DNA of 64,000 bases from Haliotis cracherodii. Taxonomy: Eukaryota. Below, piece by piece: positions 11,129 to 17,059 of this stretch. The notes under the pieces were generated by a model. That model was not told the DNA's origin and did no database searches. It saw nothing but the letters and a program-made list of their open reading frames with translations. The stretch covers positions 56,048,001 through 56,112,000 of the forward strand of contig NW_027266264.1 in assembly GCF_022045235.1 (NCBI RefSeq). Direction: 5' to 3'. The translations under genes and the position numbers were made by a program. Each line of letters begins with the position of its first letter. The first letter of the stretch is position 1.

Positions 11129-11354
11129 CCATATGGGTACAATGTGTGTCAATTTCTGGTGATGAGATGAATTCCATTTTGTGTTTTATAGATTTTCTCG
11201 ACTGAGATGATGGACTATTGAAAGGGTATCAGGATTAAAAAAAGGTCAATCGAGACAAAATTAACAACAGAAATTAACAAAAGAATCCATTGAAAAAATG
11301 ATGATAAACTGGTTCTTGTTTATTTGTTTCTTCATAACTTGAATCAAGATTAAG

Positions 11355-11543
11355 CGCCAGTTAGGTTAGGAGGAACTGTACACTTGTCACACATCGACAG
11401 GACACATGTAAAGACTTGATGATATTTATTGGCAACACTCGAAACGAGCCGCGAAACCCAAGCGAGCCTCCCAAGACAGGCGAGCTACCAAGGGGAGCTA
11501 ACCCTGTTTACATTAAAGCATGCCAAGCAAACCTGCGTTGGCG
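11355..11543 (-). repeat. 3' LTR (189 bp)
   Basis: Identical by eye to 16762-16950. Minus-strand polyadenylation signal AATAAA at 11425-11430. Confidence 0.97.
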
Positions 11544-11549
11544 TGACTG

Positions 11550-11563
11550 TCTTTTTTTTCTTC
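11550..11563 (-). promoter_or_regulatory. Polypurine tract GAAGAAAAAAAAGA
   Basis: 14-nt purine run upstream of the 3' LTR on the minus strand, separated from it by CAGTCA. Confidence 0.8.
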
Positions 11564-11771
11564 ATGATAAACGTTATCTAAACAAACCATAATGAAGGAA
11601 ATAGGCGTGAAAAACAACTTGGTAAGTAAACAATGATGTATTAAAGATCCAATTTCTGGTTAACCATGAAACCAATTGGTAAGTAAACCATCATAGGGTA
11701 GACTGCCCTCTGGTCGATGGGGATTATTCTGCCCCTCACAAACATAACATTTAATAAACAAACACAATACT

Positions 11772-14700: not shown

Positions 14701-16622
14701 TTAACAAATGCTTGAAAGGGGCCTGAAGCACCATTATAGCCATCGATATGTTGGTTAAACACATCGTCGAACTCCGTAAGTAGTAACTCAAACTGAGATT
14801 TGGTATCTTGCGGGAGGATATTGTCCGGGTCTACACAAACAGTGGATGAGAAACCAATGTCCTTAATTTGAGGGGACATAGTTGGTGGTAGCAGATGTGC
14901 CGGCTCAACATCATAATCAGGGTCGCAGTCAGGTATAAAAACTGGGCGAATCTGGCAAAAGTGCTCGTGTTTCTTGAGCAGTTGTGGAGTGTCGGACAGA
15001 TTCGGGATCCTGATTTTGCCTGAGACGCTTGAGATAATTCCTAATTCTGGCCAAGTGGATGATAAGGTAGAGCGTCCAGGTCTGGTATCTATGCGGGGTT
15101 CTATGGCAAATGTGAAATCCGAAGGAGCAAAGCTTTCAGGAACCGGCACCTCAATAAAGTCTCCAGGCCATATGGTAGTAGAAGTGTCTGGGGCTCTGAG
15201 TACACAAGCTCGTCTCACAGTATGTTCGTCACCAGTTGTTTCTGTGGAACCGTATGTGTATGTCGTGCCATCACCAAGTATGATCTGATGTTTTGCAGGG
15301 CGTACTGCCACATCGTTGGCCTCCATAAATGGTATGCCTGCAAGGACTTCTACGTCCAGGTTTTCCACCACAAGACCATTAAAGTCGAACTCCTTGTTGT
15401 CGCGTGTGAAAAGTATTCTTGTCTCTCCAACGACCTTCAGTGGGGAAGAGCCATCTGCCTGATGGGCTGACTGAGAGCTAGTCTTGATGTCAGCGCCGAG
15501 GCCTGTTGCTGTTGAGAGGCGGATCATGTTACCAGTAGCTCCACTATCTACAGTGACTCGTGCCGTCTGGTGGCCACAGAAACAGTACATATAGGGCGAC
15601 TGACGGACTTGCACACGAAGAGTGGAGACAGGTTCAGTAGATGGCACTGCACATGCATTTTCAACTGTATCACTAGCATCGTCAGCAGGGTCATCAAGTA
15701 TACTGGCAATTTGTCTTGCTTTGACCATGTATCTCCGGTCATGATCTGGAAGGAACTTACACTCGCTGAGATAATGAACGTGATCGCTGCGTCCTGCAGC
15801 TTTACACAGTGGGCATGATTTTTGAAACTTTCTACCCGTTTGTTGTGCTTTAGCAAAACGTGAGGATGACGAGCGCTGTTGTGAAGTGTTTGTCCTCATA
15901 ACCTTAGCATCCTCTGCTGTGCGGATTTCATCTAAAAGTGAATCTAGAGCCTGTGAGATTTCAGGTTTCAAAGAGGAAATTGTTCGTGAGCGAAGATCTG
16001 TCCCATAACGTTGTTTGACGAGCTTTGGAAGTTCAACGTGTATCAGCCTCAGCCATGTGAGCACAACAAAATTTTCTAACGATGGTGACAATTCCTCGTC
16101 CTCTTCAGGTGCATTGCCATAGTGGGTTATTCCCCCTTCACGGCGGAGTAAATTGTCCTCCACAAAAGCCATTAGTCTCTGATACAAATCTTCCGGTCTC
16201 TCGTCATTTTCAAGTTTGATTTCGGCAAAGTCAATGAAATGAGCGCCGGTTGCTTGGAACCCGAAATGTAGGCGTATGGCATGCCATATGGCATCTACAG
16301 ACGTTGAGGATTTTATTATGGTGTTCCGTGAAATTATCGGACAATAATTGGCAATCTGGCCGAGCATGAGCTCCAAACTGCTAACCTTCTGTCTTGCAGT
16401 TCTTCTAATAGCTTCACGGACGTCTTCCCCGTCGTCAGTCATGCCCCTGAGTGGCGTGGCCCTAGTTTTCTTATGCCAGACTGCCCCGTCGGCAAGAAAT
16501 GGAGTAAAATTTGTGTCCAAAGATAATGTATAAAGGAGATTTTGCCTCCAGTTCTCGAAAGAATTTACAGTCTCAATCTTACCGAGGCACCATTGCTTCG
16601 GGGCACGTTGAGCGTTGGCCAT
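11772..16622 (-). CDS. gag-pol: Gag-Pol polyprotein, 1616 aa (Gag/zinc knuckle, aspartic protease, reverse transcriptase, RNase H, integrase)
   Basis: Motifs in order: CPLC-X9-H-X4-C knuckle (15759-15815); protease VDSGA (DSG at 15540-15548) and LAGIPF; RT DLTNAFYQ, SAMGMPGS and KLADDL (LADD at 14190-14201); RNase H TDGA..EVEAL..TDS..NVPSDFASR; integrase H-X4-H...CHRC and IRTD-X35-E (PVAE), then IGDLVYL. The ORF ends in RPSRQRQRPKRFDEYV. Confidence 0.97.
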   Translation of the reverse strand: MANAQRAPKQWCLGKIETVNSFENWRQNLLYTLSLDTNFTPFLADGAVWHKKTRATPLRGMTDDGEDVREAIRRTARQKVSSLELMLGQIANYCPIISRNTIIKSSTSVDAIWHAIRLHFGFQATGAHFIDFAEIKLENDERPEDLYQRLMAFVEDNLLRREGGITHYGNAPEEDEELSPSLENFVVLTWLRLIHVELPKLVKQRYGTDLRSRTISSLKPEISQALDSLLDEIRTAEDAKVMRTNTSQQRSSSSRFAKAQQTGRKFQKSCPLCKAAGRSDHVHYLSECKFLPDHDRRYMVKARQIASILDDPADDASDTVENACAVPSTEPVSTLRVQVRQSPYMYCFCGHQTARVTVDSGATGNMIRLSTATGLGADIKTSSQSAHQADGSSPLKVVGETRILFTRDNKEFDFNGLVVENLDVEVLAGIPFMEANDVAVRPAKHQIILGDGTTYTYGSTETTGDEHTVRRACVLRAPDTSTTIWPGDFIEVPVPESFAPSDFTFAIEPRIDTRPGRSTLSSTWPELGIISSVSGKIRIPNLSDTPQLLKKHEHFCQIRPVFIPDCDPDYDVEPAHLLPPTMSPQIKDIGFSSTVCVDPDNILPQDTKSQFELLLTEFDDVFNQHIDGYNGASGPFQAFVNMGPVQPPQRKGRVPQYSRDKLSELQQKFDELERMGVFVRPEDAGIQVEYLNPSFLIKKSSGGYRLVTAFSDVGRYSKPQPSLMPDVDSTLRQIAKWKYIITADLTNAFYQIPLSKESMKYCGVVTPFRGVRVYARSAMGMPGSETALEELMCRVLGDLLEEGVIAKLADDLYCGADSPDELLRHWRRVLEALKHNNLRLSPNKTVIAPRTTTILGWQWHQGSIQASQHRISTLASCSPPETVTGLRSFIGAYKVLSRVIPGCSTLLAPLDAEVGGRQSSEKLLWSDSLLNAFKTAQAGLASNKSIVLPHPDDQLWIVTDGAVRKPGIGATLYVTRSDSPRLAGFFSAKLRRQQVAWLPCEVEALSIAIATKHFSPFIIQSKHKACVLTDSRPCVLAFEKLCRGEFSASPRVSTFLSTVSRYQATIQHLAGSANVPSDFASRNAPECDNPSCQICSFIERTESSVVRQLSIEDIMNGTTRLPFTSRSAWRSLQEECQDLRRTHAHLLQGTRPSKKVTNIRDVKRYLNTATISKDGLLVVRKSEPLGSPRECIVVPRQVLDGVLTALHIQLDHPSAHQLKQVCHRYFFALDLDRSINTVSKSCHRCASLRKTPHVVVDQSTSDPPETVGFAFASDVMRRERQLILVLRECVTSYTAACIITDERGSTLCEALIRLCIEFRPLDGPHAVIRTDPAPGFSSLVTDERLQQHRITLEIGRVKNVNKNPVAEKAIQELEDELVRQDPVRGPTTPTALAIAVARLNTRIRSRGLSSREMWTQRDQFTNCQLPLSDKQLITEQHVNRRKNHSHSEKSKAPRSHRPVIDQIEIGDLVYLHNDRNKTCARNRYLVVTKDGLWCNVRKFVGTQLRNTSYRVKLSECFKVPLWNKTRVHEANSEDTSDIDDDPPETLHQTPETPHIPLEISTPPLPPLKNDVFDDNHPTDISSASDQFDPGIQSSSTSRPSRQRQRPKRFDEYVLDF

Positions 16623-16749
16623 AATGACAGTCTTGTTTACTCTGCGTTATCCAGGCACTCTACCGCCTGACCTGTTGAGCACGTTCAGTGAAAGTATGCA
16701 AGTACTACAGTTCGTTGTGTCGCCTGCTTCGTTAGACGAGAGTTCAAAC

Positions 16750-16761
16750 CCGCTGCCACCA
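16750..16761 (-). promoter_or_regulatory. Primer-binding site, tRNA-Leu type (TGGTGGCAGCGG)
   Basis: Directly follows the 5' LTR on the minus strand and begins TGG. It is complementary to ...CCGCUGCCACCA, the 3' end of metazoan tRNA-Leu(AAG/UAG). Confidence 0.85.
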
Positions 16762-16950
16762 CGCCAGTTAGGTTAGGAGGAACTGTACACTTGTCACACA
16801 TCGACAGGACACATGTAAAGACTTGATGATATTTATTGGCAACACTCGAAACGAGCCGCGAAACCCAAGCGAGCCTCCCAAGACAGGCGAGCTACCAAGG
16901 GGAGCTAACCCTGTTTACATTAAAGCATGCCAAGCAAACCTGCGTTGGCG
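16762..16950 (-). repeat. 5' LTR (189 bp), minus strand 5'-CGCCAACG...AACTGGCG-3'
   Basis: Identical by eye to 11355-11543, with a 5-bp terminal inverted repeat CGCCA/TGGCG. Minus-strand AATAAA at 16832-16837. Confidence 0.97.
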
Positions 16951-17059
16951 AAGGCTCTATTAAATGTTATTTTACATACAACATACTTAATGCATTTGAT
17001 ATTTATAAGGTTGATACTGATACATGCAAAATTACATATATATAGACTCTGTGGAATTT

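What the first reader, a model, noticed from the sequence alone, without database searches (positions are those of the whole stretch)
11352..16953. Intact LTR retroelement with non-canonical CG...CG termini and a 3-bp TSD (Troyka-like lineage)
Seen: identity between the two 189-bp LTRs stops exactly at CGCCA...TGGCG, and the flanks are AAG|element|AAG. Established: retroviruses and Copia, Gypsy and BEL elements almost always end TG...CA and make 4-6-bp TSDs, because integrase cleaves after a conserved CA. Inference: this integrase recognises a CG-3' end and makes a 3-bp staggered cut. From memory, these traits define the poorly characterised 'Troyka' group in Repbase; I cannot verify that here, nor whether this family is catalogued. 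Standard LTR finders that require TG..CA and a TSD of 4 bp or more would miss it.
Basis: partly seen in the sequence, partly recalled or inferred. Interest (0 to 1): 0.88.

Follow-up and report, generated by a model that had tools for sequence, protein, structure and literature searches.

The report
Young intact Troyka LTR retrotransposon
This is a real, recently inserted jumping gene of the already published Troyka type (CG ends, 3-base target duplication), and all 42 target duplications found for it and its relatives in this genome have A or T in the middle, which likely reflects how sharply its integrase bends the target DNA.

Summary
Confirmed, but a known kind. A 5,596-bp minus-strand LTR retrotransposon (11355-16950) has two identical 189-bp LTRs (CGCCA...TGGCG), a 3-bp duplication and one open 1,616-aa Gag-PR-RT-RNase H-integrase frame. 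Across four related families in G000, 26 of 26 paired copies and 16 of 20 solo LTRs have an exact 3-bp duplication; none of 46 has 4-6 bp. Contigs from two studies show the empty site. It meets every Troyka hallmark I could test (Kojima 2025; = Kuafuorterviruses, Gong & Han 2024): termini, duplication, CX2CX9HX4C knuckle, LADD, no GPF/Y, no env, and an RT clade apart from Gypsy and BEL. Whether Repbase holds this exact family could not be checked. Details I did not find in those papers' main texts: the middle base of the duplication is A/T in 42 of 42 sites (P 4e-9); a tRNA-Leu primer site abuts the LTR with no gap; a Y-Y-R triplet sits between purine tract and LTR; the integrase active-site loop is remodelled. 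These suggest testable end-processing and target-bending rules. The scan earlier noted non-autonomous Troyka copies in another genome.

The parts
11352..11354 (+). Target-site duplication (AAG; CTT on the element strand)
   Evidence: single AAG at the empty site
11355..11543 (-). 3' LTR, 189 bp, CGCCA...TGGCG; AATAAA at 11430-11425 (likely poly(A) signal)
11544..11546 (-). Y-Y-R spacer (TCA) between purine tract and 3' LTR
   Evidence: Y-Y-R in 4 of 4 G000 families and 28 of 35 distinct metagenome sites
11550..11563 (-). Polypurine tract, likely plus-strand primer
   Evidence: same position in all four families
11772..16622 (-). Single Gag-Pol open frame, 1,616 aa (P0001); no env
12063..13175 (-). 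Integrase: HHCC 12888-13004; D1274 (12801-12803), D1331 (12630-12632), E1367 (12522-12524); C-terminal beta-barrel 12063-12236 without GPF/Y
13374..13850 (-). RNase H, directly after RT (no tether domain)
13950..14645 (-). Reverse transcriptase, LADD at 14190-14201
15273..15581 (-). Aspartic protease (DSG at aa 359)
15723..16622 (-). Gag: predicted capsid fold, CX2CX9HX4C knuckle at 15759-15815
16750..16761 (-). Primer-binding site, 12 nt complementary to the 3' end of tRNA-Leu(AAG), no gap to the 5' LTR
16762..16950 (-). 5' LTR, 189 bp, identical to the 3' LTR
16951..16953 (+). Target-site duplication (AAG)

Best explanation
This is a recently inserted, full-length LTR retrotransposon of the Troyka (Kuafuortervirus) lineage with CG...CG ends and a 3-bp target duplication; it likely copies itself by tRNA-Leu-primed reverse transcription, and its DDE integrase likely joins the two CG-3' ends to host DNA 3 bp apart around a central A:T pair. 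Shown: boundaries, duplication, empty allele, domain order, lineage, A/T centre in 42 of 42 duplications, 12-nt match of the primer site to a tRNA-Leu(AAG) gene of the genome, zero gap at that site, Y-Y-R spacer after the purine tract. Inferred: transcription from the 5' LTR; one Gag-Pol polyprotein cut by its protease; particles that stay inside the cell (no env); plus-strand priming at the purine tract; removal of a short extension from at least the U3 end; a target kink sharper than in 4-bp systems, which would explain the weak central pair; and a remodelled integrase loop (K-N-x-N-K-N-P-V-A-E against Y-H-P-x-x-N-G/S-x-x-E in Gypsy controls) as the likely reader of the CG end.
For: Duplications: 42 of 46 exact 3 bp, 0 of 46 at 4-6 bp, centre A/T 42 of 42 against 63% A+T flanks, P 4e-9. 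Centre A/T at 13 of 15 single junctions in metagenome contigs. Empty allele in two studies. Domains PR-RT-RH-IN. Integrase model closest to foamy-virus (Z 19.8, rmsd 5.6, 334 aligned) and Ty3 integrases; D-35-E triad invariant in 76 of 76 rows. Gag model's top three hits are Copia and MOAP1 capsid folds, with dArc1, MLV and RSV capsids close behind, though Z is only 5-6.5. RT tree: 12 CG-type rows form one side of a branch, 99/99, apart from 7 Gypsy and 3 BEL rows. About 80% RT identity, counted by eye, to a published Kuafuortervirus entry. Youth: identical LTRs, only 4 differences in 5.6 kb to two copies on other contigs; 15-25 synonymous against 9-12 non-synonymous changes to four older copies, i.e. 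purifying selection. Gypsy controls in the same genome have 4-bp duplications. Sharper bending with shorter spacing is published for retroviral intasomes.
Against: No named Repbase Troyka sequence or retrovirus was in my tree, and it carries long-branch warnings. 4 of 20 solo LTRs lack an exact duplication. Three older LTRs (86-89% identical to their family query) end in TGGCA, which I read as CpG decay. In metagenome contigs both loci with two host junctions have unmatched triplets (0 of 2), probably collapsed assemblies, though this was not shown. 7 of 35 purine-tract sites lack Y-Y-R. The loop-to-CG link rests on alignment by D-35-E spacing only; my first residue idea (HIV K159 equivalent) failed. 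No biochemistry exists.
Confidence: 0.93

Rival explanations
1. An ordinary Gypsy element whose real ends are TG...CA, with the AAG match arising by chance and the boundaries misread.
For: Best solved-structure match is Ty3 RT-RNase H, E 3e-29; Gypsy-like domain order; one 3-bp match has a 1.8% chance.
Against: 26 of 26 paired copies have 3-bp duplications and none has 4-6; the empty allele fixes the boundaries; the RT is only 18-28% identical to six Gypsy RTs of the same genome and falls outside them.
Confidence: 0.01
2. A separate lineage that reached CG ends independently and is not Troyka.
For: No Repbase Troyka sequence could be placed in the tree. Earlier scan notes (untested here) report CG-ended Copia elements with 4-bp duplications, so CG ends alone are not diagnostic.
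Against: Knuckle spacing, LADD, lack of GPF/Y, LTR length and 3-bp duplication all match the published definition. Gag start 37 of 46 and RT about 80% identical, by eye, to published Kuafuorterviruses, some of which show the same TGGCG|TGGTGGCAGC junction.
Confidence: 0.03
3. End processing, option A: the cDNA carries a 3-nt Y-R-R-3' extension at both ends (TGG copied from the tRNA CCA at U5, the Y-Y-R spacer at U3), and integrase trims both.
For: The spacer is Y-Y-R in 28 of 35 sites and is CCA itself in 9 of 35, mirroring the tRNA end; zero gap at the primer site in 35 of 39 primer-like sites; di- or trinucleotide processing is known in retroviruses.
Against: It needs tRNA-derived bases to be kept at U5. 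Retroviral RNase H leaves none or one (recalled). No two-LTR junction was found.
Confidence: 0.3
4. End processing, option B: asymmetric. U5 leaves reverse transcription flush or nearly flush at CG, and only the U3 spacer (1-3 nt) is trimmed, the mirror image of foamy viruses.
For: Zero gap at the primer site against a conserved spacer at the purine tract; asymmetric processing is published for foamy viruses.
Against: Does not explain why the spacer resembles CCA.
Confidence: 0.5
5. The A/T centre reflects chromatin, host base composition or loss of other insertions, not integrase chemistry.
For: Flanks are A+T-rich (63%) and position -4 is also A-biased (42 of 84 symmetrised).
Against: The bias is absolute at one base, holds in four families, and neighbouring positions are C/G-enriched (C at -1 in 42 of 84, G in 6 of 84); it is also seen in contigs with 52% A+T flanks.
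Confidence: 0.1

Closest known systems
Troyka LTR retrotransposons (Kojima 2025, J Gen Virol, PMC12440569; first named by Kapitonov & Jurka 2008, seen only as a citation)
   Same: CGCCA...TGGCG ends, 3-bp duplication, LTR within 100-400 bp, single Gag-Pol with PR-RT-RH-IN, CX2CX8-10HX4C knuckle, no tether, no env, no GPF/Y; several young families per genome.
   Different: No difference in any published hallmark. The main text has no word on primer tRNA, purine tract or target preference. Whether this family is among its 581 annotated pairs is unknown, because the supplements could not be read.
Kuafuorterviruses (Gong & Han 2024, Virus Evol, PMC11673190), stated there to include Repbase Troyka
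   Same: 5-6 kb, I/V/LADD motif, marine animal hosts; RT about 80% identical by eye to a listed entry; same LTR-primer junction in Supplementary Dataset S1.
   Different: That paper's main text does not discuss termini, duplications or priming.
Metaviridae/Ty3-Gypsy (Ty3, PDB 4ol8 and 7q5b; Gypsy families in G000)
   Same: Domain order, RNase H next to RT, integrase fold including N-terminal extension and C-terminal barrel.
   Different: 4-bp duplications, TG...CA (or TAT...ATA) ends, spacer bases between LTR and primer site, YxDD motif, YHPxxN(G/S)xxER loop in the controls.
Prototype foamy virus integrase and intasome (PDB 3oyk, 4bac)
   Same: Best structural match to the integrase model (Z 19.8, rmsd 5.6, 334 aligned; tied within 1-2 Z with Ty3).
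   Different: 14% identity; CA ends and 4-bp stagger; a retrovirus with env.

Membership tests
Troyka | 5'-CG...CG-3' LTR ends (CGCCA...TGGCG) | tested here: met
Troyka | 3-bp target duplication, confirmed at an empty locus | tested here: met
   42 of 46 sites; empty allele
Troyka | LTR 100-400 bp, internal part 1,553-7,691 bp | tested here: met
   189 bp and 5,218 bp
Troyka | Single Gag-Pol, order knuckle-PR-RT-RH-IN, no env | tested here: met
Troyka | CX2CX8-10HX4C knuckle | tested here: met
   CX2CX9HX4C at aa 270-288; spacer 8 or 9 in 96 of 120 listed proteins (P0001 included), no match in 24
Troyka | No tether domain between RT and RNase H | tested here: met
   continuous alignment to Ty3 RT-RH, aa 692-1082
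Troyka | No GPF/Y motif in integrase | tested here: met
   only GPF is at aa 634, outside integrase; 2 of 69 full-length proteins with the C-terminal module do have one nearby
Troyka | Gag with capsid similarity to Copia, Ty3, HIV-1, dArc | tested here: inconclusive
   Foldseek none at E<=0.001; VIA top hits Copia capsid Z 6.5, MOAP1 6.3, dArc1 5.5: right family, weak scores
Troyka | RT branch outside Gypsy and BEL | tested here: met
   99/99 against in-genome controls only, long-branch warning
Troyka | Clusters with, or is identical to, a named Repbase Troyka entry | not testable with these tools
   Repbase not held; supplements unreadable
Kuafuorterviruses | I/V/LADD in place of YxDD; 5-6 kb | tested here: met
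   LADD aa 808; 5,596 bp; L/I/V/M-ADD in 116 of 120 listed proteins
Kuafuorterviruses | RT similarity to published members | tested here: met
   about 132 of 161 positions identical, counted by eye against a row of the paper's RT alignment
Metaviridae/Ty3-Gypsy | TG...CA ends with 4-6-bp duplication | tested here: not met
Metaviridae/Ty3-Gypsy | RT nests among Gypsy RTs | tested here: not met
   outside 7 in-genome Gypsy rows; sampling is limited
Belpaoviridae/BEL | Peptidase_A17 domain and BEL-clade RT | tested here: not met
   no PF05380 hit on P0001; outside the BEL rows

The most novel reading that the evidence does not exclude
Troyka integrases follow their own integration code: they trim a 3-nt Y-R-R tail from both cDNA ends (one copied from the tRNA-Leu CCA, the other encoded after the purine tract to mimic it), read a CG-3' end with a lineage-specific active-site loop, and cut 3 bp apart only where a weak A:T pair at the dyad lets the target kink, giving a (C/T)-W-(G/A) site rule not described for any retroviral-type integrase I found.
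Probability: 0.3. Interest if true: 0.6.

Novelty: new member of a known kind. Interest (0 to 1): 0.3.

Why it matters
The headline traits were published in 2008, 2024 and 2025, so the finding as written is a correct rediscovery. What remains of value is mechanism. Troyka is the LTR lineage reported to break both the CA-end and the 4-6-bp rules, and I found no biochemistry on it. The copy survey gives sharp predictions: an A/T-centred 3-bp site, tRNA-Leu priming with no spacer, a Y-Y-R tail at U3 and a remodelled active-site loop. They bear on how DDE integrases set stagger length and end specificity. The A/T-centre and primer-site rules would also help annotate these elements, whose ends default LTR finders misplace.

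Tried and rejected
1) HIV K159-to-E change as the CG determinant: E in 64 of 76 rows, but Gypsy controls with CA ends have L, E or H there, so rejected. 2) Search for an integrated two-LTR junction of this family in G000: 0 matches; uninformative on end processing. 3) Duplications in metagenome contigs: 0 of 2 loci with both junctions matched; not usable as a test, since repeats collapse in short-read assemblies. 4) First tree: one row was cut at the wrong motif (L251, 1% identity) and the careful search did not finish; rebuilt with 23 rows, dropping all 5 metagenome rows, L081, L089, 5 homologues, 2 BEL rows and 1 RVT_2 row, and adding L306. 6) Raw reads X18 were too shallow to show junctions; run X7 of another organism holds the element but not this left flank. 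7) Foldseek gave no significant Gag match. 8) Kojima's supplements were unreadable. 9) A first attempt to match the primer site to the tRNA was off by one base because ARAGORN's call includes one extra base; the 12-nt match is read from that output. 10) No earlier notes for this genome.
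Full report
OBSERVATION. The only long direct repeat in 10500-17800, apart from a tandem array, is 189 bp at 11355-11543 and 16762-16950, 100% identical. It starts CGCCA and ends TGGCG, and AAG flanks the whole 5,596 bp on both sides. The element is on the minus strand. [quoted passage not shown] It fills all but 139 bp after the 5' LTR and 228 bp before the 3' LTR, so there is no room for env.

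IS THE 3-BP DUPLICATION REAL? A single match has a 1.8% chance, so I surveyed copies. The LTR has 43 matches in G000. An RT search found further related families; I searched with LTRs of three of them. Of 95 LTR hits examined, 72 went into 46 sites: 26 pairs and 20 solos. I left out 23 that were truncated, unpaired or a duplicate flank. An exact 3-bp duplication is present in 26 of 26 pairs and 16 of 20 solos, and 0 of 46 have 4, 5 or 6 bp. For the window's own family the figures are 8 of 8 and 5 of 7. Ends are CGCCA...TGGCG, with transitions in older copies (CACCA, TGGTG; three end TGGCA). Controls from the same genome behave differently: an env-bearing Gypsy family has TGT...ACA ends with 4-bp duplications in 3 of 3 copies, and a second Gypsy family has TAT...ATA ends with 4-bp duplications in 3 of 4, one unresolved. 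Laying four public runs on the locus gave a joint 11351 to 16951 (5,599 skipped) in contigs of X2 and X5, two studies of organism A. This is the empty allele with one AAG, so the insertion is polymorphic. X7 lacks this left flank and X18 was too shallow.

AGE AND STATE. The LTRs are identical. Two copies on other contigs differ from this one at only 4 positions; four others differ at 38-42, with 15-25 synonymous against 9-12 non-synonymous changes. Of eight near-full-length copies (this one included), six keep a frame of 1,624-1,631 codons and two are broken. The family was mobile recently and has been under purifying selection.

WHAT IT IS. Kojima 2025 (PMC12440569; main text parts 1-4 of 5 read; supplements unavailable) defines Troyka by CG...CG ends (573 of 603 LTRs start CGCCA, 522 end TGGCG), 3-bp duplications, a CX2CX8-10HX4C knuckle, no tether, no env and no GPF/Y, and proposes a new superfamily. 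Gong & Han 2024 (PMC11673190; main text parts 1-2 of 3, supplement part 1 and search hits read) describe the same lineage as Kuafuorterviruses with I/V/LADD. P0001 has CX2CX9HX4C, LADD and no GPF/Y in the integrase, and aligns with Ty3 RT-RH without a tether. By eye, its first 46 residues match a deposited coral element at 37 positions, and about 132 of 161 RT positions match a listed gastropod entry. A homologue search gave 1,040 proteins among 8,000 scored; the 119 best relatives are 70-84% identical over PR-RT-RH, and the named ones come from marine gastropods, cnidarians and a hemichordate. In an RT tree of 23 rows the 12 CG-type rows form one side of a branch (99/99), apart from 7 Gypsy (88/97) and 3 BEL rows; the tool warns of long branches, and no retrovirus or named Troyka was included. 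The integrase model (pLDDT 79.5) matches foamy-virus and Ty3 integrases over nearly its whole length. The Gag model (pLDDT 87.1) has no Foldseek hit but ranks Copia, MOAP1, dArc1, MLV and RSV capsids at or near the top, at Z 5-6.5.

HOW IT LIKELY WORKS. Priming: directly after the 5' LTR lie 12 nt complementary to the CCA-bearing 3' end of a tRNA-Leu(AAG) gene of G000. A short relative (L129) has an 18-nt match. The gap to the LTR is zero in all four families, and in 35 of 39 distinct primer-like sites in 80 metagenome loci; the other 4 have no LTR end before them and look like coding sequence. This count is conditional on my motif. Gypsy controls have spacer bases there. Plus strand: a purine tract is followed by a Y-Y-R triplet before the 3' LTR: TCA, TTG, TTA, TCG in the four families, and 28 of 35 distinct metagenome sites, 9 of them CCA. 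Retroviral integrases trim 2-3 nt next to an invariant CA (PMC5329712, passages), and foamy viruses trim one end only (PMC6784120, section 4 and passages). So either only U3 is trimmed (I give 0.5) or both ends carry a 3-nt tail (0.3). Neither is shown; a search for a two-LTR junction was empty. Target: the middle base of the duplication is A or T in 42 of 42 sites against 63% A+T in flanks (P 4e-9); the first base is C in 23 and G in 1; symmetrised, C 42 and G 6 of 84. Single junctions in metagenome contigs give 13 of 15 (P 0.006); one exception is a degenerate primer site, and both loci with two junctions have unmatched triplets. Intasomes with shorter spacing bend the target more sharply and favour flexible central steps (PMC9410886, passages). 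A 3-bp stagger around one weak pair extends that trend; this is inference. End reading: D1274, D1331 and E1367 are invariant in 76 of 76 rows with D-35-E spacing. The loop before E reads K-N-x-N-K-N-P-V-A-E, with K1358, N1359, N1361, K1362 and P1364 invariant, against Y-H-P-x-x-N-G/S-x-x-E-R in the Gypsy controls. The matching HIV-1 loop and helix contact the viral DNA end (PMC3228729, passages; the mapping uses recalled HIV numbering and equal D-E spacing). It is the best candidate for CG recognition, untested. The K159 position does not discriminate and was dropped.

NOVELTY. Searches for Troyka, Kuafuorterv- and Trojicaviridae return two research papers and a meeting report on the group (PMC12859917 passages). 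Kojima's main text has no occurrence of PBS, primer, tRNA, PPT, polypurine or target preference, and I saw none in the parts of Gong & Han that I read. A general search on 3-bp targets and non-canonical termini showed nothing on this in its listing. I could not see the 2008 Repbase Report, Repbase entries or Kojima's supplements, any of which may hold the primer site, a target consensus or this very family. Earlier scan notes record two non-autonomous Troyka copies in another genome, and CG-ended Copia elements with 4-bp duplications; I had read the Troyka paper before that look-up.

VERDICT. Observation confirmed, interpretation supported, new member of a known kind (possibly already catalogued). 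Interest 0.3, resting on the target-site rule and the end anatomy, not on the element's existence.

Noticed in passing
G000, L103-L105 with L164-L169 (C12:29.09 Mb, C6:35.68 Mb, C34:8.67 Mb): An abundant Gypsy family (YIDD, Pol frame about 1,765 aa, dozens of open copies) has TAT...ATA LTR ends with 4-bp duplications in 3 of 4 copies examined: a second non-TG/CA lineage in this genome.
   Followed up: partly
G000, L099, L106, L107: Gypsy family with a third ORF matching baculovirus F protein (PF12259, E 8e-21), identical 740-bp LTRs, TG...CA ends and 4-bp duplications; three young copies.
   Followed up: partly
L129/L130 (G000:C8:27763729-27764611): 883-bp non-autonomous derivative of a sister Troyka family (two LTRs, about 515 bp inside), with a CAA duplication and an 18-nt perfect match to the tRNA-Leu end.
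   Followed up: partly
L016 (G000:C5:33209157-33209894): Solo LTR inserted in a repeat with tRNA-like motifs, then amplified in tandem (183-bp spacing) three more times with an internally deleted LTR, each keeping the 3-bp duplication.
   Followed up: partly
window 12063-12236 (-): The integrase keeps a predicted C-terminal beta-barrel with G-D-x-V-Y...K...R-x-R-Y where Gypsy has the GPF/Y module; 69 of 73 full-length proteins have the G-D-x-V-Y/F part. The module looks degenerate rather than absent.
   Followed up: partly
window 10599-11137: MITE-like element: nested inverted arms of 25 and 51 nt at 88% complementarity, about 220 bp left of the insertion.
   Followed up: no
window 17171-18772 and 50855-53595: Tandem arrays of 27 bp (59 copies) and 16 bp (170 copies); they account for all other long frames in the window.
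   Followed up: no
G000:C3:27.84-27.88 Mb and C27:0.69-0.73 Mb: Long tandem runs of a tRNA-Leu 3'-end motif (140 matches genome-wide); one locus checked holds a tRNA-Leu(AAG) gene.
   Followed up: partly
P0029, P0065, P0095: Close relatives labelled as proteins of bacterial metagenome-assembled genomes; probably host retrotransposon DNA binned into MAGs.
   Followed up: no
L173 and L178 (G000:C1:61.36 Mb): Two solo LTRs 1.9 kb apart with identical flanks: a local duplication after insertion; counted once.
   Followed up: yes
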